Shown here: positions 4,503-27,664 of the stretch, in pieces
Numbering within the stretch: position 1 is the stretch's first letter
How the letters are laid out: each line of letters opens with the position of its first letter
Assembly: GCF_037042905.1 (NCBI RefSeq)
Contig: NC_087251.1
Location: 49,105,358-49,169,357, forward strand
Direction of reading: 5' to 3'
DNA length: 64,000 bases
Source: Lytechinus pictus
Lineage: Eukaryota
Position numbers and translations under genes: made by a program
Notes under the pieces: model-generated
What the model was told of the DNA's origin: nothing
Seen by the model: the letters and a program-made list of their open reading frames with translations, nothing else
Database searches by the model: none

Positions 4503-5619
4503 CTGATGAAAGAAAATAAGGCAAATGAAGCCAAAATAGAAGACTGAACAACTTCAGTAAAGTATTAATTACAATGATTGCAACAATGGACATAAAGATG
4601 AAGCATTAGAGCTGCATAAACTTTTTTTTTTTAACAATGTTTAGTGGAAAAATAAATACTGTATATGTTTATGATAAAGTAAATATCATCATAACATATA
4701 AATAAATAAACAGATTAGTCAAATCACTTTTTAAAAACGAAATACTACAAATTTATTACATGCCTGTACATTAATAATAATTGAGAAGAAATGCTAGTTG
4801 CATCTAGATTTTTTATGCACATTGATCGTATCATTCACCATGATTCTAGCTGGAGTCATCTCAGGCATAGGCCTCATTGGGCTAATTATCATAAGATCAT
4901 TTATTTATTTGATCAATTTCTTTCCTTTTTAGGCGATTTTCATTTCATCACTTTTTCTTTACTTTTTTTTTAGCAAATACTATTATTTATTTTTGAAGAG
5001 ATTTTGGTTAAGATGTACAGTATGTGATATACAGATCAATATATAATATAGAAAGTGTACTTAACTCATATTGTCAATGATTTTCTGTTACTTGTAATTT
5101 TGTTTGCCCCCCCCCCCCCCCCACTTCACTTGTGCGCCTTGAGCATCTCTCACAAGATGGATGTGGCACCTCCCAAATTGCATATTATTATTATAATATG
5201 AGTTGACAATCATTTTGAATTGATGTTTTCGGATTGTCTGACTTTATTTCCATAAATCATGGGGAACCATACTAAGCTTCAAACTTTCTGCATATTTCAA
5301 CTCAAACTTCATCTCCACTTCCTGGAAAGAAGAATTAATTTGCATGATTTTCCTCAGAGCTGGGAATCTAGTCATATTTGAACAGTCCATCCATTGGTAT
5401 ACTCATGCTTGACTTAAAATTACTTGGTCTAATTGACAGGTTGAATTCTACATTTCATTTTTTCAACAACCAGTTCATCTATTTAGGATATTGTTTAATT
5501 TCCACTAGACCCAATAACCAGTTTGTCCAAGATCCAGTTTGGATAACCCTATTTAGTACTTGGGATAATTTCAACATGGTTATAAAGAGAACATGTTAAT
5601 CAGACCAAATACATTTTTT

Positions 5620-6035
5620 ACGAGTACCGAAGTGATATCACAATTTTTTTTTTTTTTTTTTTTTTGGGGGGGGGGGGGATTTCAGCATTTTTTATACCAT
5701 ACCTCCGCAGGGCATGATGAAAATTGAAAATTGAAAAAAAAAAAACAGCATCCCAAATTTGGTGGGAATCGGTCCATGGTGCCCTCATGAATACATAATT
5801 AGCCCCACTGAAGTCAATGTATCATTAGCCTGGTTCATAAAAGATCTAGGCCGATAATACATTGATTTCAGTGGGGCCAATAATGTATTCATGAGGTCAT
5901 ATCTTGGGGCCCCATGGACCAATTCCCACCAAGTTTTGGGTTGTGGAGGTATATCATTATCAACCGTAATATGGAGAAAAAAACGGCGAAATAAAAATTT
6001 AAAAAAATTGACGATGTCACACACCAGTACTCTAT
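5620..6035. mobile_element. Degenerate foldback MITE
   Basis: Imperfect inverted arms (GGTGGGAATCGGTCCATGG / CCATGGACCAATTCCCACC; GCCCCACTGAAGTCAATGTAT / ATACATTGATTTCAGTGGGGC) and GAGTAC...GTACTC ends. Confidence 0.55.
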
Positions 6036-7241: not shown

Positions 7242-7424
7242 GCAATATAATTCATATCTGAGAAGATGAAAGTCTTGTTGACATCAAACCCGCAGGCGAT
7301 GATGTCCTTGGCATTCTCATAACCCAGCTTCTGAGCTTCCTCAGCTTTGAGATCCTTCCACAAAAACTTTTCATCGTCAGTCAGCTGAATGACTAGAGGC
7401 ACGTCAAATACATCCTGAAGCCAC
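7242..7424 (-). CDS. WARS1: Tryptophanyl-tRNA synthetase, coding exon 4
   Basis: 183-nt exon encoding [61 protein letters not shown], with tcttag| and |gtgagt boundaries. Confidence 0.97.
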
Positions 7425-18231: not shown

Positions 18232-20477
18232 AATCCATAATATTTTTCGGCCAATGCAAGTATTTTTTTAAATCTAGGTTGGCAGCTATACACCCGTGTG
18301 GTATCTAGGTATTGATAACAAAGACTTCAAGATGGCGACCAAAACAGACTGGGTAAGCGAACTCTTGTGCTCTTAAATTTCTTTAGATTTCTTACTATTT
18401 ATTGAAAAAAATAATTTAAAATATCAAATTCGGGGGGGAAATATTGTTTTGGCCCATTTACGTTAGTTTGGGCTCAAAACAATTTATACAATCTGTGATT
18501 TAGATCTACTTTCACCATGGGAAATCCTAGCCTCTACAGAGAGGAATGATCTCCCGGCCCAGGCTCCATGGGGAGTAAGCCTACGTTAGTGGGTGTCTGG
18601 AGAAAAAAATATTTTTCTTATTTCAAGAAAATATCACATTTTCTTTGTGAATTTGAAGAGAAATGACCTTCAGACTGACAGAAATGTAACATTTTTTTTT
18701 AAATCCAATTATTGGCTGCAAAAAAAGAAGAATGAAATAGGTAAATTTTCAGCTTTTCTCTGCCATAGACTGTGTAGGCCTAGTTAAGAAATGGACACAC
18801 ACAAATCCAAATTTTTAGCTTCCGAGAGCTGTTATAAATTTATTATTATAGCCAAAAACTTGTCCATAAAGAGTCCAATAGGATTTTTTATGCTCTTTCT
18901 GATGGTATGATTTTTATAAAGATTTGGAAACCAGATCACAATGAAAACTTGCAACAAAGTGAAAAAAATTGTACAAAACAGAAATTTCATTTTCCCATAG
19001 AAAACGCATGGGGCAATGGCAATCTCAACACACACACAAATACGGGTTTGCAATCTATCTCTAAGTCTAAATCTTTATTTCAAATAATCCTATAAGTATA
19101 AACTTGTCCTTACTGTCAAAACAAGCCCCTGAATTTTCTCTTTCCATACATGCCAAGCCCAAAAACACAATTAAGTTAGGCCCCGGCTAAGTTAGGGGCC
19201 TAATTTGGCCTAATCAGTTAATAAACTGATAATCAATTCAGACAGTCAGATCACATTTTTCTAGCACCCTGAATTTCCCGAGAAAAAATGTGCCATATTT
19301 TCCCCTAAATCAGCCTGTTTTATGCTGACACTTTTCAGTGTGGCCTGATTTTTACTCTCCAGGAGCCTCCAGGCTAGGAGTGGGCGGCCGCGTCAGATAT
19401 ACTACTGTATATTAGTCCGGTCTGTTAGCGTCAAAAACACCCTACTTGTGGACACGGTGGACAAAAGCATGATTTTTTCTCCAGACCTTTGTTTATGTAT
19501 GAGAATTAAAAATGGGGTATGCTCCAAAAAATCTGGCTGCAGGAACAGTGAAAAAAATGGGTGAAAATGTCAGAATTTATGAGTTTAGATTGGTCTGATA
19601 TATAGACTAGCGCTAGTGCAAAACTCAATAGCAGTGCATTATTTTGCATTGGTTTAGTTCTTGAATTCAGACCCTTTTTGAACAAATATTCTGTTTGTAC
19701 TCACATCTCAATGCACTAAATATCTGAATGCAGATGCTAAACAAGCCGAAGGGTGGTGGTGGAGGGGGTTGAATGTTGGTGTGTCTGTACATATTTTGGT
19801 CTTGGGGTAAAGATGTGCCATACACATTTTTTGCATGTGTTGGAAATTGTGTTGCCATGGTAACAGTGTATTATGACAAAAATAAGGTAAAAATCTTGCA
19901 GTTAGAACTACTTCCTCTGTTTTCATCAGATTCTCATGAAATTTGGCACACATATTGGTCTTGAGGTGAAGATGTCTAAGACACATTTTTGTGTGTCTTT
20001 CGGAAATTTTGTTGCCATGGTAACAACATAACATTTGGTGAAAATTGGGGAAAAAACCTTACAATTCAAATTGCTTCATCAGTTTTCAATCAATTCACAT
20101 GAAATTTGGCACACACATTGGTATTAAAGTAAAGATGTACAAGGCACTTTTTGTGTGTGTTTCAGAAATTGTTTTGCCATGGTAACAACATATTATATGG
20201 CAAAATTTAGGTAAAAACCTTGCAATTTGAACTACTTCATCAGTTTCAAACCAATTCTCATGCATGAAATATGGCTCACACATTGGCCTTGAGATAGAGA
20301 TGTGCAAGAACCTTTTTTTTGCATTTGTCAGAGTGCATTGCCTTGATAACCACATATAGCCAGAAATGCAGGGAAAACTCATCAATTGTGGATCAATCTA
20401 CTTCTCTGTTTTCAGCCTGTGCTCAGAAAAGTTTACACAAATATTCATTTTTGGTAAAGATTCATATTCAGTGTTAA

Positions 20478-21048: not shown

Positions 21049-23861
21049 TTAACATCATAAAATAGCGCAGGGTATTCATGGTATTAATCACATTCAATAA
21101 CATTTATAGGTTCTTTTTTTTGGGGGGGGGGCGGAGGAGGTCCTTAAAAACTGACAACATAAAAATATAGAAGGTTAAAGGCCATGGCCATTAGGAACTT
21201 AAACACTCTTAAAGAAAGCACCCCTTCCATTTTTTTTTTTTTTTTTTTTGGGGGGGGGGCCTTTAGAAACTTGCCACAGAAAGATTAAAAGGAAATAATT
21301 ACAACTAGGAACTGAACCCCCCCCCCAAAAAAAAAAGGGGGGAAGAAAAATCCTTTACACTTCAGTGTATTAATTTAAAGCCTAAAACATTCTGGTTTGA
21401 TAAAAGATCATTTCCGGTGCCCAATTAATCAACGTTTTATTTATCTCCTACTCAGTATTTGTTCATTTCAGTTCTTACTCTGACTTTCTTACATCACTTT
21501 TTGCACTTTTTGCACTTAAGAGCTTTACCATACCTTCTTGTTTTGTTTCCTCTCCCCCCCCCCCTCTTTTTCTCCCTCTCTAAGTACATTTTTCTTTGCT
21601 ATTTTAAATCATTATTATCTAGCAACAATTATTCCATTTTGAATGCTTACACCTACACTGAAATATAATACCATGACATTTATTATTTTCTTCATAATCT
21701 TTTAAACAATATTTTGGCTACACTCTGTCCTAAGTAATACTATTAGCTATATTTAATGTCTAGTTTAAAGAATTGAAGAAATGGCTGCCATGATATTATA
21801 TTTTGGTAAAGGTGCATCAAATTCATAGTTGCAGCATTCAGAATGGAATAACTGTTGCTTGAAAAAAAAATGGATTTAGTTTTTTTCCGAAAATCCTCTG
21901 TGAAAATTTTAGTTATATCACTGAGTTTTCCCATTCCTGCAGTTACCACCATCTGAAAGGGATATGACTAGAATATATGTAGAGAAATAAAAGTCATCAT
22001 TTGCTCAATGAACAGTGAATACGTCCGTCCTTACTCCAATGGAAAATTATTTGCATTATTTGTGACAGTCAGATCTTGCATCCAACAATTTTGCTACTGA
22101 AACGTAATATTCATTTTTTGACAATTGGAGATGTAGGATGTATAAAGCAGGGGGCTGTCACAGAAATATACTGAAAAAATTAAATGAAAGAAAATAGAAG
22201 GCAAAAATTTTATTGTGCACATATGCATATTTTTGATATGGTATGTTATTGAGTCATGGATTTGCAAGTGAATTTCTAAAACAAGTGCAGAGATTTTTGT
22301 ATATATATATTTCAATAATTAGTTGCATGATTAAGGTACACTTTATAATATGTCAGAAAAAATATACTTGGAGAGAGAGAGAGAGGGTAAAAAAGAAGAG
22401 AGGAACCATAAGATGGTATGGTGAAGCTCAAAATCAAGAGTGATGTGATATAGTTAAAAAGAAAGAGTAGGAATGGAATATGAATAACAGACTGAGTAGG
22501 AGAATATAAATAAACAATGATTAATTGGCTACTGTAAACAATTTTTTTACCATAGCAGAATGCATTAAACATCAAATGAACGGTCTGAACTCTGAAGTGC
22601 AAATGACTCTTCTTACCTTTTAATGGGGGGGGGGTATTTTTCTGCTCTCAAAAAATATATCAGCCCCCTATTTTTTCAGGGGGGGGGGTTAAGTTCCTAG
22701 TCATAATCCTTTAACTTTTACTTTTATGAGGTCATTTTTTAAAGACCCCCCCCCCCAAAAAAAAAGGGAGTAGTGTCTCGCTTTAAAATCCAAAGACCCC
22801 TGAGGGGCAAAGGCGTAGACTGGTTGAGCATGGGGAGATAGAAGTGGTATGGGGAGGGGTGCACATCTTGGGGAGGTGGAACTAAGGTTTGGAAAATCAG
22901 CCGTTGAAAGTAGAAGGGGTACACATTTTGTTTTGCTTGCCAGTGTTGGAACTCCTTTGCCACAGCGGAAGGTTTCACATTCACCCAGTGTACCCCCAGC
23001 CTATGCCCTTGAGGGGATGCTTATTTCAAGAGTGTTAATGGACACCGCCTTTAACCTTTATTTTGATGTCAGATTTTAAGGACCAATCCCGCTCCTCCCC
23101 CAAAACCTAGAAATGTTACTGAAGGTGATTAATACCCCCACACTCATATATTTTAATGCAGTTTAGAATTTGATATGAATCTTTACCCAAAGATGAATAT
23201 TTCTTCCAACTTTTATGAGCACTGACTAAAAAAAGGGGAAGTTGTTTGATCCACAATGAGTTTTCCTGCATTTCTGGCTATCATATGTGGTTACCATGGC
23301 AATATACTCTGACAAATGCACACAAAAAATGGTTCCTGCACATCTTTACCTCAAAGCAAATGTATGAGCCAAATTTCATGAGAAATGGTTCAAAACTGAT
23401 GAAGTTGTTGAAATTGCAAGGTTTTTACCTAAATTTTGCCATATAATATGTTGTTACCATGGCAACACAATTTCTGAAACACATACAAAAAGTGCCTTGT
23501 ACATCTTTACTCTAATACCAATGTGTGTGTCAAATTTCATGAGAATTGATTTAAAACTGATGAAGCAGTTTGAATTGTAAGGTTTTTTTCCCAATTTTCA
23601 CCAAATAATATGTTGTTACCATGGCAACACGATTTTTGAAAGACACACAAAATGTGTCTTAGACATCTTCACCTCAAGACCAATGTGTGTGCCAAATATC
23701 ATGAGAATCGGATGACAACAGAGGAAGTAGTTCTAACTGCAAGATTTGTACCTTATTTTTGCCATAATACACTGTTACCATGGCAACACAATTTCCAACA
23801 CATGCAAAAAATGTGTCTTGCCCATCTTTACCCCAAGACCAAAATATGTACATACACACCA

Positions 23862-26734
23862 CACGTACGTGCATAGCGCCAACTTAATGTGTTCCGCCAT
23901 CTTGCTTGTTGGTTGCCGATAAAATGCGCATTTTCAGATTTTTTAACGCTCAGTTATTACCCATGACTGAAACATTGACCAATCAAAAACTAAGATTCTA
24001 CAAGAAATATGAATATTCATATACGAAAGTATAAACATAGATAATTCAGTTTTATGTGAAATTTAAACCCAATACTTCAAAATATGGTTAGTTTTATGTC
24101 TCTAAAATAACCCTTAAAACCAGAATTTTATTACTAAAAAATAAAGGTTTTCCCAAGTTGCCATGGTAACGCGGTCTGAGATATAAAAGCTTAGCAAACA
24201 CTTCATTTCAGTGATCGAGGATGTATTTGTTTACGGTATACGTCTGCATAAATTATAACATTTTTTTCCAGACCATGGATGAACTTTCAAAAAGAGACAT
24301 TTTAGGCAATTTTTTACGATTTCCGGCAATTTTCTGACACAGGCACTTTGAAGAGGTAATTTTTACAGAATTAGAAGAAGACATCATGGATTTTCCTAAT
24401 ATCACGACGGATATGCAACTTACTTGTAAACAAATCAAACAAAGTCTATGATACATTTTCGATAATGCAAAAAGAGACATTCAAGTCTCTGATTGAGAGC
24501 CGCAGATTGAACATTCGCACGGCGCAATGGTAGCGTTTTCACCGAATTCGTCGGGGCGAAAACTCCAAGCGAGCCGTACCACTCACCAGTCCCGAACGCT
24601 GCGCTGTATGTTTGATGATTTATCTGGTGCCATTTCGTGCTTATAAATTTGTTTTTTCTACAATGCCACTATCTCATTAAAATTGTTTGTCATGATAACA
24701 TTGGAAATATTATCGTTTAATGGCCCAAAGGATCGACTGTAATAAAATATACTTTGAAATATTGTCAGAGAGTGATTAGTTAGGTGATGTTTATGGTCAG
24801 AATTTAGTCATGGCTTCGGTCGAACTTACGCGAACGCGGTCACTTGCTCACGGGGCGAGTCGGCCTGGCCCTTTGGTGGAAGGCCGTTAGGCAACGTGCA
24901 GTGCAGCTAGAGCAGAGTTGGGGAGTTATAGGTATAAAAATACTTTGAAATAAGTGATCTGCAAATATTTTTGTCTTATCCCTTTGGATTACTTAGATAA
25001 GAAATTCAAATTCTCAAAGTTTAAATCAAATTTTAGACAGTGACAACAAAGAGTGTATGGGGGGGGGGGTGGGTCTTGCATGCCCCCAATTCACGAACAA
25101 GAAAAAAAAGGAAAAGGTAAGAGAATCTTGCGAAATTGTTCAATTGGATTTTTGTAACCAAAAGTCAAAATTATGCTTATGTCGCTTGCTTGCAACTATA
25201 TATTTTATAAATTTTGCCTGATACGCCATATCGTAGTACCCTCAATTGTTTTCACTTGTTACGCCACTGACATGACTGATATAACATCTACTATTATGAT
25301 AACATTATTTGGTTGCGGGATCAAAGCATCAGCTATAGCTAAACATTTATACTTTATGCCTGTTCAACTTCCAATACAGGTTTAGGCCTGTATTTATGAG
25401 ATGTTAAGATCTATGGGTGCCTTTATTATTTTCATTTTCAATTAAAACAATTATTAATTATGTATTAATTTAGTATTAACCTCGATGATACATTTTATTG
25501 TGTTAAATCGTACAATTTCTGTTGTATTAAGCCCCTTATTAAGCCCTTTTAAAAACATGCTCAGTAGCAGACCCCCCCCCCCCATATATAAAGACAATAG
25601 AAGTGTATATAGAATTAATTGACCCCCCCCCTATTGAGGACAAAATGAAATAAAATACTCAAAATAATCGACCGCCCCCCCCCCCCCCTTTGACGAGGCA
25701 GCTGTCGGTGGCCTGATGTCTTCATTGACTTCTTTTTGCTTGTAAAAATAATATTAAAGAAATAGGGGCTACCGGTACTCTAAGTGTCCCCTATGAAAAT
25801 TGATTTGGATCTGCAAGTGCATGAGGCTGCGCCCCCTCCAACGTCATAGCTACCCCATATCTTTAGGTTCTAGCTCTCATATTTTTCAGCTCCCTGATTT
25901 TTTGGGAAAAAAAAACGAGGCGAAAGAAAAGAGTGAAATAAATGAAATACGATTAATCAAAATTTGAGTTGTTTGAAAGAATTATACTTATCAGAGAAAC
26001 TAAATTAAATTCTACAACCATGAAGAATAACAGCAATCTTGATAAATTTTTTTTTTTTCAAAATCAGAACCAATCAACCTTTTTCTGATTATTCTGTCAC
26101 TTTCCATATTTTGGAGAAAAAAATAAAAGTGTTCATCGACGCCCTGTACTGCATGATGAAACTGTATCCCCACTCGGCCCTCGTAACCCCCCCCCCTCCC
26201 CCCCCCCCCCCACAATGCCCCTTGCTCATTTCTCTTATCTCACCTTGACCTTAATTAATTAATCTTAACTATTTGGCGGTACAGTCAAACGTGACTGGTC
26301 GCCATCATAGTTTCATCCCCAACAAACAAGGAACAAACAATAACAATTCTGTTTTTCGACACAACATCATTCCTTTCAATACGCGTAAGGCTATACGTGG
26401 GCATGCACAAACAACGTGGGTTAACAAAAACTGACCCGCGTTTGGACTGAAATTGTGATTAAAATAAAAATGTTATAAATATGAAAAAAATATGTGTATA
26501 ATGAAGGAGATTTGATAAACGGAAAAACATCAATCGCTAATTCATAAAAATGCTGGAAAAGATTTGACAGAGGTTTTTAACAACGGTAATCAAGGGGAAT
26601 TAGTGTATGGGTGAATGGCGTTCAAGTTTTAGCCGAGCGTTAGCCGGTGAGGGCGCGGGCCAAATCTGCCTGAATCTGGCAATATGGCGTCGTCCATTAA
26701 GCTGACGTTAGCCAGCGGCGACTGCACGTACGTG
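23862..26734 (+). mobile_element. CAC...GTG DNA transposon with asymmetric RSS-like ends (Chapaev / Transib / RAG-like), non-autonomous
   Basis: 12-bp TIR CACGTACGTGCA. 4-bp TSD ACCA (23858-23861, 26735-26738), verified against the empty mirrored site at 19771-19790. A distal shared block is offset by 12 bp between the two ends. Confidence 0.82.
24275..24605 (+). pseudogene. Decayed ORF near left end of the CAC element, possibly a transposase first exon
   Basis: ACCATGG Kozak context. Reads MDELSKRDILGNFLRFPAIF*HRHFEEVIFTELEEDIMDF...KQIKQSL*YIFDNAK, then frameshifts and ends at a possible GTATGT donor. No diagnostic motif recognised. Confidence 0.35.
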
Positions 26735-27664
26735 ACCAACATTCATCCCCCTCCATCACCACCCTTCGGCTTGTTTAGCATCTGCATTCAAATATTTAGT
26801 GCATTGAGATGTGAGGACAAACAGAATATTTGTTCAAAAAGGGTCTGAATTCAAGAACTAAACCAATGCAAAATAATGCACTGCTATTGAGTTTTGCACT
26901 AGCGCTAGTCTATATATCAGACCAATCTAAACTCATAAATTTTGACATTTTCACCCATTTTTTCACTGTTCCTGCAGCCAGATTTTTTGGAGCATACCCC
27001 ATTTTTAATTCTCATACATAAACAAAGGTCTGGAGAAAAAATCATGCTTTTGTCCACCGTGTCCACATAATTCCGCTAACAGACCAGACTATATAGCCTA
27101 GGTACCGGTACGGTACCGTGCGCCGTTACGTGTGGAGATCCAGCTGGTAATCGAACTTCTTCTGAGTGTATTAAGTTAGTGTCTATTTACATGTGGCTAA
27201 TCATGAATCAGACAACTTATAACATTCGAGAGTGAATTAAAAAAAAACCCACTCTTATCAAACCATAGAATAAAATACATCAGAATAATTTGTTTTCTCA
27301 CCAGAGCAAGTTAATGCAAAATTCCAGGCGGGTTTTTTTTCTCGGGACTCAGACTGTTGACACGTTATTGCATCAGTCCTGCATGCATGCGGCGCATGCG
27401 GCCTGCGGTAGTGTTCACATATGGAATGCTGAATTATTTTTGTTCTTTTTCAAACGTAATTTCGAAATTTGAATGAAATATTAGATACAGAGAGATTTTT
27501 AATTTTGATGAATAATCGGGCATATAAATACTAAACAAATGATAAGAGCGCAGAGTGCGAGGTGATTTCTGTTTGTTGCTGATAGTTTAGATCTGAAAAT
27601 TCAATTTCAAATAATGCGACTTTTTGCGAGTCAATTTTGTTATTGCATTGACTTAAATACAAGA

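What the first reader, a model, noticed from the sequence alone, without database searches (positions are those of the whole stretch)
23862..26734. Transposon with asymmetric RSS-like ends (heptamer + 12/24-bp spacer + shared nonamer): candidate RAG-like/Transib/Chapaev relative
Seen: the left end reads CACGTAC-[12 bp]-AACTTAATG-TGTTC-CGCCATCTTGC (23862-23905). The right end, reverse-complemented, reads CACGTAC-[24 bp]-AGCTTAATG-GACGA-CGCCATATTGC (26734-26679). Both ends therefore share a terminal block and a distal bipartite block offset by 12 bp, about one helical turn (11/23 if the shared preceding C is counted). The first 10 bp form a perfect palindrome. The TSD is ACCA (4 bp), confirmed by the empty mirrored site at 19771-19790. 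Known: V(D)J RSSs are CAC heptamer + 12/23 spacer + nonamer. Transib/RAGL elements have CAC ends and usually 5-bp TSDs; Chapaev has CAC ends and 4-bp TSDs. As I recall, amphioxus ProtoRAG TIRs carry GCCATCTTG 27 and 31 bp from the heptamer; here that exact 9-mer lies 27 bp from the left heptamer, and an 8/9 variant lies 39 bp from the right one. Inference: this is a non-autonomous member of a family with 12/23-like end asymmetry. Caveats: the nonamer is not ACAAAAACC, GCCATCTTG is also the common YY1 site, and no transposase is recognisable.
Basis: partly seen in the sequence, partly recalled or inferred. Interest (0 to 1): 0.86.

Follow-up and report, generated by a model that had tools for sequence, protein, structure and literature searches.

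The report
Sea-urchin Chapaev transposon, ProtoRAG-like ends
This is a young, non-coding copy of a cut-and-paste transposon from the Chapaev group, whose enzyme folds like the immune-system recombinase RAG1, and its two unequal ends resemble those of the amphioxus RAG transposon.

Summary
Window 23862-26734 is a 2,873-bp transposon with the ends as written, a 4-bp ACCA duplication and a paralogous empty site. It has no ORF over 78 aa. The genome holds 112 left and 106 right ends (0 in controls). The 4-bp duplication is perfect in 10 of 10 pairs checked.

Related families in the same genome share the 12-bp tip CACGTACGTGCA. One 7.3-kb relative carries a spliced gene for a transposase with Pfam DUF1280 and the C(2)C/LH/H(4)H motifs. 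An upstream ORF on the same strand matches the RAG1 N-terminal region. The predicted fold matches the RAG1 core (Z 28.5), ahead of BbRAGL and Transib. This is not Transib or RAGL: the duplication is 4 bp, not 5, and no RAG2-like gene was seen.

The asymmetry is conserved. CGCCAT starts at base 34 in short ends and at 46-47 in long ends, although the spacer sequences have diverged. The short end (CAC heptamer, 27 bp, GCCATCTTG) equals the published ProtoRAG 5' TIR design, whose 9-mer is a YY1 site.

Open points are which enzyme moves this family, the second end of one family, and any functional pairing rule. Earlier scan notes cover other RAG1-like transposons, but not this family.

The parts
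23858..23861 (.). Left copy of the 4-bp target-site duplication, ACCA
   Evidence: The empty paralogous site holds one ACCA.
23862..26734 (+). Non-autonomous Chapaev-clade transposon, family A, 2,873 bp, 38% G+C, with no ORF over 78 aa
23862..23873 (+). Left tip CACGTACGTGCA. It includes the CAC heptamer and a 10-bp palindrome, and is identical in families A, B, B2 and E.
23881..23889 (+). First half of the subterminal module at the short end, AACTTAATG, 12 bp after the heptamer
   Evidence: Related forms in other families appear.
23895..23905 (+). Second half of the module, CGCCATCTTGC. It holds the YY1 consensus CGCCATNTT and the exact ProtoRAG TR5 9-mer GCCATCTTG, 27 bp after the heptamer.
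   Evidence: passages of PMC7481187 and PMC8289069.
26679..26689 (-). Second half of the module at the long end, CGCCATATTGC, with GCCATATTG 39 bp after the heptamer
26695..26703 (-). First half of the module at the long end, AGCTTAATG, 24 bp after the heptamer
26711..26722 (-). The 12 extra spacer bases (GTCGCCGCTGGC read inwards) that make this the long end
   Evidence: by direct comparison of the two ends.
26723..26734 (-). Right tip CACGTACGTGCA, read inwards
26735..26738 (.). Right copy of the target-site duplication, ACCA
19777..19780 (-). Paralogous empty site with a single ACCA (TGGT on the + strand), inside an inverted duplicate of the flanks

Best explanation
The element is a non-autonomous cut-and-paste DNA transposon of the Chapaev clade. 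That clade belongs to the CMCT group, which also contains Transib and RAG1. The element codes for nothing and must be moved in trans. The enzyme would be a DDE transposase with a RAG1-type fold, like the one encoded by a 7.3-kb relative in the same genome. Each end has two conserved parts: a 12-bp tip beginning with CAC, and a subterminal module of about 23 bp (ARCTYARTG, about 5 bp, then CGCCATNTT). The module lies one helical turn further in at one end than at the other, with CGCCAT at base 34 versus base 46-47. Integration makes a 4-bp staggered cut with no target preference. I infer three further things. The tip is the cleavage site. The module is a cis-required binding site for the transposase or for the host zinc-finger protein YY1, as in amphioxus ProtoRAG. 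The unequal spacing favours pairing of one short and one long end, as the 12/23 rule does. The end anatomy, copy number, target duplication, family relations, transposase fold and a spliced transcript form are shown here. Mobilisation in trans, YY1 binding and a pairing rule are inferred.
For: Mobility. There are 112 left and 106 right ends against 0 control matches. By hand I paired about 92 of the 100 listed left ends with a right end. Of these, 86 pairs span 2,770-3,073 bp. The six longer pairs are the same element with nested insertions. Copies are 94.6-100% identical. The 4-bp duplication is perfect in 10 of 10 pairs with both flanks fetched, with no consensus, and there is an empty site. 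No ORF exceeds 78 aa.

Relatives. Pattern CACGTACGTGCAM found inverted pairs. Family B (3.4 kb) has 4-bp duplications in 2 of 2 copies read. The third relative read, the 7,285-bp element in L071, lacks a clean one.

Transposase. L071 carries a multi-exon gene that equals P0001 (567 aa). The only named source calls P0001 an uncharacterized Lytechinus pictus protein. P0001 matches Pfam DUF1280 at 2e-17. An upstream ORF on the same strand matches RAG1_imp_bd at 23.6 bits, against a cut-off of 23.3. D112, D182, L265, H266, H498 and H503 are invariant across 50 homologues, and C201, C204, E520 and E524 are nearly invariant. Of 10 long homologues, 10 have DUF1280, 6 match RAG1_imp_bd at E<=0.01 (4 above the cut-off) and 7 match a RING finger family at E<=0.01. 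The model has pLDDT 93.6. Foldseek ranks 1-44 are RAG1 or BbRAGL chains (E about 2e-13), followed by HzTransib, then Hermes at E 0.05. VIA-align gives RAG1 Z 28.5 (448 residues, 3.6 A), BbRAGL 25.4, HzTransib 25.1, P element 14.0 and Hermes 9.0. Contigs of two runs carry the gene with 8 introns removed, all with CT..AC ends, meaning GT..AG on the gene strand, and 0 mismatches.

End design. CGCCAT starts at base 34 in A-left, B-5' and B2-5', and at base 46 or 47 in A-right, B-3' and B2-3'. In one search (66 matches, 2 in controls) I judged 61 to be family ends. CGCCAT starts at 34 in 10 of them, at 46-47 in 46, and at 40, 44 or 49 in 5. Spacers differ between families (10 of 21 bases identical between A-left and B-5') while their length is kept. 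A and B share no other similarity.

ProtoRAG. Its TIRs are CACTATG, then 27 or 31 bp, then GCCATCTTG. The 9-mer lies in a YY1 site that bbYY1 binds, and it promotes recombination (passages of PMC8289069 and PMC7481187).
Against: No autonomous copy with family A's own ends was found, so the enzyme that moves family A is not identified. Only one intact copy of the L071-type transposase exists.

L071 itself lacks a clean duplication. Its flanks are GTAC and GGGT, and it fits GGGT only if two extra bases are allowed.

Family D has 31 long-type ends, but no matching short end was found, apart from one D-like short end with GGCCAT at base 34. I could not read D's flanks, so its status as a terminus is inferred.

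Five D-like copies have other spacings (40, 44 and 49).

A third Chapaev-like lineage (L074 and L075, three copies) starts with CACGTATGTG but has no CGCCAT module, no inverted repeat and no duplication.

The B-5' motif reads CGCCATTAA, which is not a full YY1 consensus. Seventeen family A copies carry CGCCATACT at the long end.

The families are related, so shared spacing could be inherited rather than selected. Nothing here tests binding, cleavage or pairing. The Chapa-type ORF was not covered by the spliced contigs.

A RAG1-like fold is a trait of the whole CMCT group (passages of PMC12730594), so it does not single out this family.
Confidence: 0.8

Rival explanations
1. The element is an ordinary Chapaev transposon, and the 12-bp difference between its ends is a neutral insertion or deletion inherited by related families. 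On this view it has no role in pairing, and the CGCCAT motif is a leftover promoter element of the autonomous ancestor.
For: All families carrying the design share the same 10-12-bp tip, so they descend from one ancestor. Spacing variants at 40, 44 and 49 exist. Subfamilies with a changed CGCCATNTT still amplified, 17 copies in all. In ProtoRAG the same site also acts in transcription (passages of PMC7481187). In L071 the gene starts next to the long end.
Against: Spacer sequences are close to random relative to each other (10 of 21 bases identical). At least three unrelated long-end spacers exist (A/E, B and D). Yet lengths stay at 21 versus 33-34 bases, and the 6-mer and 12-mer stay intact. 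Non-coding families with unrelated interiors keep the module at both ends, which is what a cis requirement for movement predicts. A promoter would be needed at only one end, and not at all in non-autonomous copies.
Confidence: 0.3
2. It is a non-autonomous Transib or RAG-like (RAGL/ProtoRAG) element moved by one of the RAG1-like genes in this genome.
For: The end design matches ProtoRAG: a CAC heptamer, 27 bp, then GCCATCTTG. The genome holds 17 matches to the Pfam RAG1 core, three of them open frames of 612-624 aa.
Against: The duplication is 4 bp in 10 of 10 family A pairs and in 2 of 2 family B copies read. Transib and RAGL make 5 bp (passages of PMC4411706 and PMC7481187). None of the RAG1-core matches lies near an end of this family. 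The relative that shares the tip encodes a DUF1280 protein, not a Pfam RAG1 protein. No RAG2-like gene was seen in it.
Confidence: 0.04
3. It is an EnSpm/CACTA or Mirage element moved by one of the Transposase_21-type proteins of this genome.
For: The genome has 12 Transposase_21 matches, eight of them in open frames of 657-914 aa. These superfamilies belong to the same CMCT group and also have CA..TG termini (passages of PMC12730594).
Against: The three loci fetched (L068-L070) contain no CACGTAC motif. The duplication is 4 bp rather than 3 or 2. The relative with the same tip has DUF1280 plus a RAG1 N-terminal-like ORF and no Transposase_21.
Confidence: 0.04

Closest known systems
Chapaev DNA transposons (CMC/CMCT group; one of four clades of the 'Transib superfamily' in Kapitonov and Koonin 2015, PMC4411706)
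   Same: CAC...GTG termini and a 3-4-bp target duplication (passages of PMC4079192). The relative's transposase has the C(2)C, LH and H(4)H motifs. It also has an N-terminal zinc-finger region like that of RAG1 (the Chapa domain), and homologues often carry a RING finger.
   Different: In what I searched I found no description of Chapaev ends as a tip plus a YY1-type module set at two discrete distances. Repbase entries could not be consulted. This copy is non-coding.
ProtoRAG / RAGL-B transposon of amphioxus (TIR = TR1 CACTATG, TRsp of 27 or 31 bp, TR5 GCCATCTTG; YY1 binds TR5)
   Same: The heptamer starts with CAC. The identical 9-mer GCCATCTTG lies exactly 27 bp after the heptamer at one end. 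The two ends have unequal spacers. The transposase has a RAG1-type fold (BbRAGL Z 25.4).
   Different: The long end has 39-40 bp rather than 31. The duplication is 4 bp, not 5. No RAG2-like gene was seen. There is no match to the Pfam RAG1 core. The heptamer differs after CAC, and the tip is a 10-bp palindrome.
V(D)J recombination signal sequences (12/23 rule)
   Same: A CAC heptamer plus a second conserved block. The block's distance differs between the two partners by about one helical turn (12 versus 24 bp to the first conserved block).
   Different: The second block is not the A-rich nonamer. These are transposon ends, not gene-segment signals. No pairing rule has been shown.
Transib (HzTransib)
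   Same: A RAG1-like fold (Z 25.1) and CAC termini.
   Different: Transib makes 5-bp duplications and lacks the N-terminal Chapa-type region (passages of PMC4411706).

Membership tests
Chapaev | Termini 5'-CAC ... GTG-3' | tested here: met
   Both ends start with CACGTACGTG read inwards. This holds in 29 of 29 left and 30 of 30 right loci.
Chapaev | Target-site duplication of 3-4 bp | tested here: met
   The duplication is 4 bp in 10 of 10 family A pairs, and the empty site holds one copy. Among the relatives read, it is 4 bp in 2 of 3.
Chapaev | DDE transposase with C(2)C, LH and H(4)H motifs | tested here: met
   These are not in the element itself, which is non-coding. They are met in the relative L071/P0001, which has CLFC, LH and HILEDH. 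L265, H266, H498 and H503 are invariant and C201 and C204 nearly invariant in 50 homologues.
Chapaev | N-terminal Chapa domain (RAG1 N-terminal-like zinc finger) | tested here: met
   ORF L071:6299-6841(-) matches RAG1_imp_bd at 23.6 bits against a cut-off of 23.3. Six of 10 long homologues match it at E<=0.01, four of them above the cut-off. Its splicing to the core exons was not shown.
Chapaev | Phylogenetic placement among reference Chapaev transposases | not testable with these tools
   No Repbase or RepeatPeps reference set was available.
Transib / RAGL (ProtoRAG) | 5-bp target-site duplication | tested here: not met
   The duplication is 4 bp.
Transib / RAGL (ProtoRAG) | Transposase recognised by the RAG1 core profile (PF12940) | tested here: not met
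   P0001 matches only DUF1280. None of the 17 genome matches to PF12940 lies at L071. The fold is nevertheless RAG1-like.
Transib / RAGL (ProtoRAG) | RAG2-like kelch gene inside the element (RAGL only) | tested here: inconclusive
   No further long ORF appears in L071. No kelch profile search was run, and a gene of many short exons could be missed.
Transib / RAGL (ProtoRAG) | TIR = CAC heptamer, fixed spacer, then TR5 GCCATCTTG at 27 and 31 bp | tested here: inconclusive
   The short end matches exactly (27 bp, identical 9-mer). The long end has 39-40 bp (passages of PMC8289069).
V(D)J RSS | Heptamer CACAGTG, A-rich nonamer, 12 or 23-bp spacers | tested here: not met
   Only CAC and the offset of about 12 bp are shared. 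The second block is not A-rich.
EnSpm/CACTA | CACTA termini, 3-bp duplication, Transposase_21 domain | tested here: not met
   The termini are CACGT and the duplication is 4 bp. The relative has no Transposase_21. Three Transposase_21 loci lack the tip motif.

The most novel reading that the evidence does not exclude
The bipartite, unequal ends of this Chapaev lineage are homologous to the ProtoRAG TIR (heptamer, 27 bp, then the YY1 site GCCATCTTG). If so, a signal built from a CAC tip plus a distal module, with a one-turn offset between partners and help from host YY1, existed in the common ancestor of Chapaev and RAG/Transib transposases. That would mean the root of the 12/23 rule predates the capture of RAG2.
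Probability: 0.25. Interest if true: 0.85.

Novelty: new member of a known kind. Interest (0 to 1): 0.66.

Why it matters
How the asymmetric 12/23 signals of V(D)J recombination arose is still debated, with RAGL TIRs and the 'Transib seed' idea as rival sources. Here a recently active RAG2-less transposon with a RAG1-type enzyme lives in a laboratory sea urchin. Its ends carry the same heptamer, 27-bp spacer and GCCATCTTG design as ProtoRAG. They also show a one-turn offset that is conserved between families. A transcribed candidate transposase and more than 100 natural substrates sit in one genome. This makes it directly testable whether end asymmetry and YY1 dependence are older and wider than the RAG lineage. 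If the resemblance is convergent, it still shows repeated recruitment of YY1-type sites by this group of transposons.

Tried and rejected
1. Autonomous family A copy. All six long left-right pairs (3.6-28 kb) are the 2.9-kb element with nested insertions. I found no coding copy with family A's own ends.

2. Transposase_21 loci L068-L070. They have long ORFs but no CACGTAC motif and no clear inverted repeats. I rejected them as partners.

3. Pfam RAG1-core matches in the genome. None lies near an end of this family, and I did not follow them further.

4. Paralogue lineage L074/L075. It is 49% identical in one exon and has three copies. The 6.68-kb shared unit starts with CACGTATGTG but has no inverted repeat, no duplication and no CGCCAT module. 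It gave no third test of the end design.

5. Second end of family D. Patterns found only one D-like short end. My pattern failed to exclude family A right ends, so they filled the list.

6. A sequence search of P0001 against solved structures found nothing. Only the fold comparison showed the RAG1 relation.

7. RNA evidence. No RNA holder was listed. Raw RNA runs X20 and X23 gave almost no reads on the exons.

8. Earlier scan notes hold nothing on this genome or this protein.

Full report
**What is in the window.** Read inwards, both begin with CACGTACGTGCA, and the first ten bases are their own reverse complement. At the left end, AACTTAATG follows 12 bp after the heptamer and CGCCATCTTGC starts at base 34. 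At the right end, AGCTTAATG follows after 24 bp and CGCCATATTGC starts at base 46. Aligned, the right end is the left end plus 12 extra bases directly after the shared 12-bp tip. ACCA flanks both sides. An inverted duplicate of the flanks elsewhere in the window serves as an empty site. The left flank matches 20467-19777 and the right flank 19780-19447, and the two matches overlap by exactly four bases. The 2,873-bp interior is 38% G+C and has no open frame over 78 aa.

**It is a mobile family.** The window lies in an 812-Mb assembly. The 44-bp left end occurs 112 times (95 exact). The 56-bp right end occurs 106 times (67 exact, 31 of the listed ones with one mismatch). The reversed control patterns match 0 times. 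I paired the listed coordinates by hand and got about 92 left-right pairs. Of these, 86 span 2,770-3,073 bp. Six longer pairs (3.6-28 kb) are the same element interrupted by other insertions. Sixty fetched loci are 94.6-100% identical to the window copy over about 1.7 kb. Flanks diverge exactly at the tips. In the 10 pairs for which I held both flanks, the 4-bp duplication is perfect in 10 of 10. The sequences are ACCA, GACT, ACTT, GCCT, AGGG, ACGG, ATAG, CATA, CTAC and GTGT, so there is no target consensus. Two right-end variants are shared by many copies: CGCCATACT in 17 copies, and a change in the 5-bp linker in 13 copies. Both arose before amplification.

**Relatives and the enzyme.** A search for the 12-bp tip followed by A or C excludes family A. 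It gave 53 matches against 35 in the control, including ten inverted pairs. Six pairs are about 3.4 kb apart (family B). Of the three elements fetched, two have 4-bp duplications (AGGC and TGAC). The third is a 7,285-bp element (L071) with flanks GTAC and GGGT, which fit a GGGT duplication only if two extra bases are allowed at the left junction.

L071 shares its first 870 bp (89%) and last 775 bp (72%) with family B. Between them it has 5.6 kb of different sequence. That stretch holds a run of minus-strand ORFs. One of these exons retrieved a single database protein, P0001 (567 aa). Its only named source calls it an uncharacterized protein of Lytechinus pictus. P0001 maps back to L071 exon by exon. 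It matches Pfam DUF1280 at 2e-17 and nothing else. It contains CLFC, LH and HILEDH. Passages of PMC4079192 give the C(2)C, LH and H(4)H motifs as characteristic of Chapaev transposases.

Upstream on the same strand, a 180-aa ORF with a start codon matches the Pfam family for the RAG1 N-terminal region. The score is 23.6 bits against a cut-off of 23.3. This is the 'Chapa domain' of Kapitonov and Koonin (passages of PMC4411706). That paper places Chapaev in one superfamily with Transib and RAG1.

A full-library search found 2,869 representatives at E<=0.001. In an alignment of 50 of them, D112, D182, L265, H266, H498 and H503 are invariant, and C201, C204, E520 and E524 are nearly invariant. Of ten long homologues, all ten have DUF1280, six match the RAG1 N-terminal family at E<=0.01 (four above its cut-off) and seven match a RING finger family at E<=0.01.

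**Fold.** The AlphaFold2 model of P0001 is confident (pLDDT 93.6, pTM 0.90). In Foldseek against the PDB, ranks 1-44 are RAG1 or amphioxus RAGL chains (E from 2e-13 to 3e-10). HzTransib follows (1.5e-6 to 9e-5), and the next family is Hermes at E 0.05. The second aligner gives mouse RAG1 residues 467-1005 Z 28.5 (448 residues, 3.6 A), BbRAGL 25.4, HzTransib 25.1, P element 14.0 and Hermes 9.0. A sequence-only search of the PDB found nothing. A RAG1-like fold and the C(2)C/H(3-4)H motifs are traits of the whole CMCT group (passages of PMC12730594). Two earlier notes of this scan on other genomes report the same fold. The fold therefore places the enzyme in that group. The 4-bp duplication, the Chapa-type ORF and DUF1280 are what point to Chapaev within it.

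**Expression.** Contigs of two runs from one study carry the gene with eight introns removed. The run kind is not on record. Every intron has CT..AC ends on the plus strand, which is GT..AG on the gene strand. The exons show no mismatch, and depth is 2. The contigs stop at 5347 and do not reach the Chapa-type ORF. Two raw RNA runs gave almost no reads on the exons. Because the run kind is unknown, a processed DNA copy is not strictly excluded.

**Is the asymmetry more than an accident of one family?** In family B and in L071, CGCCAT again starts at base 34 at one end. At the other end it starts at base 47. Between the tip and the motif, the short ends of A and B agree at only 10 of 21 positions. 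A and B have no other detectable similarity.

I then ran a pattern search that allowed CGCCAT to start anywhere from base 24 to 54 after the tip. It excluded family A through base 13. It gave 66 matches against 2 in the control. Five are artefacts: three read outwards from an end into its flank or are chance, and two come from a head-to-head pair of A copies. Of the other 61:
- 10 have the motif at base 34 (short ends of B and L071).
- 2 have it at 46 (variants of the A right end).
- 44 have it at 47 (10 long ends of B and L071, 31 ends of a further family D, 3 of a family E).
- 5 D-like copies have it at 40, 44 or 49.

A 3.09-kb subfamily of A has one more spacer base at the long end than the main family, which puts the module one base further in, as in B, D and E. 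The long-end spacers of A/E, B and D are unrelated in sequence but equal in length to within one base. The block before the motif is also kept at a fixed distance: AACTTAATG, AGCTTAATG and AACTCAGTG, with weaker forms in B.

So there are two discrete classes, 12-13 bases apart. They are kept through heavy sequence change, and in non-coding families with unrelated interiors. This is the pattern expected for a cis-acting requirement with a length constraint.

**Evidence that cuts the other way.**
- Family D has no matching short end in my searches, apart from one D-like end with GGCCAT at base 34. I could not read D's flanks.
- A more distant Chapaev-like lineage (L074 and L075) encodes Chapa, RING and core regions and is present in three near-identical copies. 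It starts with CACGTATGTG but has no module, no inverted repeat and no duplication.
- The B short end reads CGCCATTAA, which is not a full YY1 consensus.
- All these families share one ancestor, so they are not independent in the strict sense.

**Comparison with ProtoRAG.** Passages of PMC8289069 and PMC7481187 state that ProtoRAG TIRs consist of TR1 (CACTATG), a spacer of 27 bp (5' TIR) or 31 bp (3' TIR), and TR5 (GCCATCTTG). They state that ProtoRAG prefers the unequal pair. They also state that TR5 lies in a YY1 motif (CGCCATNTT) bound by amphioxus YY1, which represses transcription and promotes recombination. In the window copy the identical 9-mer lies exactly 27 bp after the heptamer at the short end. 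The long ends of B and L071 also carry CGCCATCTT. The long-end spacing differs from ProtoRAG, at 39-40 rather than 31 bp. The resemblance covers the motif, its orientation and one spacing. Whether this is shared descent or repeated recruitment of YY1 cannot be decided here.

**Literature.** No paper in the searched library holds both 'Chapaev' and 'YY1'. The only paper with 'Chapaev', 'RAG1' and 'heptamer' does not describe Chapaev ends, judging from the passages I saw. Repbase reports could not be consulted, and supplements were not read.

**Verdict.** It is not a Transib or RAGL element: the duplication is 4 bp, there is no Pfam RAG1 match and no RAG2-like gene was seen. It is also not an EnSpm element.

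Three things remain open. The first is which enzyme moves family A; the L071 protein is the only intact candidate sharing the tip and spacing. The second is the other ends of families D and E. The third is every functional claim about YY1 and pairing.

The element is a new member of a known superfamily. Its interest lies in the conserved, ProtoRAG-like, unequal ends, and in having substrates and a transcribed RAG1-fold transposase together in one experimentally tractable animal.

Noticed in passing
window 19447-20467 versus 23173-23861 plus 26735-27067: An inverted duplication of about 1 kb surrounds the insertion site (90-98% identical). The left flank 23173-23861 also matches itself at offsets of about 165 bp (74-76%), so it is a tandem array.
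   Followed up: partly
L074:1141-7821 (G000:C7) and L075 (G000:C6); a third copy on C15: A 6.68-kb unit, 99% identical between copies, encodes a Chapaev-like protein whose first exon has a RAG1 N-terminal-like region followed by a C3HC4 RING finger. It starts with CACGTATGTG but shows no inverted repeat and no target duplication.
   Followed up: partly
G000:C17:10317326-10317348; G000:C4:22082221-22082230; G000:C21:1002354-1002363: Ends lie tip to tip. Two family A copies face each other with left tips 3 bp apart. At two other places, two ends share a single copy of the 10-bp palindrome. This may reflect insertion next to an existing tip, or joined ends.
   Followed up: no
L071:93-100 and 7386-7393: The coding element has flanks GTAC and GGGT. 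A GGGT duplication fits only if two extra bases (AC) sit at the left junction, and these are the reverse complement of the last two flank bases. Unexplained.
   Followed up: no
G000:C4:10350969-10356782: One family A copy is inserted into another, 94 bp from its right tip. Other copies carry foreign insertions whose junction overlaps are 4-11 bp.
   Followed up: partly
G000:C182:16498-18156, C233:18651-20309, C4:15674907-15676589: Open frames of 612-624 aa match the Pfam RAG1 core strongly (227-250 bits). There are 17 matches in the genome, most of them broken. They are probably RAG1-like or Transib genes.
   Followed up: no
L068:2669-5224, L069:2580-5321, L070:3061-5382: Uninterrupted ORFs of 774-914 aa carry Transposase_21. 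One also carries DUF1258. No terminal repeats are evident within 8 kb.
   Followed up: partly
L071:1001-1500 and 5751-6000: These short stretches inside the coding element have very high depth in all four runs, and reads run on into unlike sequence. They are other abundant repeats embedded in the element.
   Followed up: no
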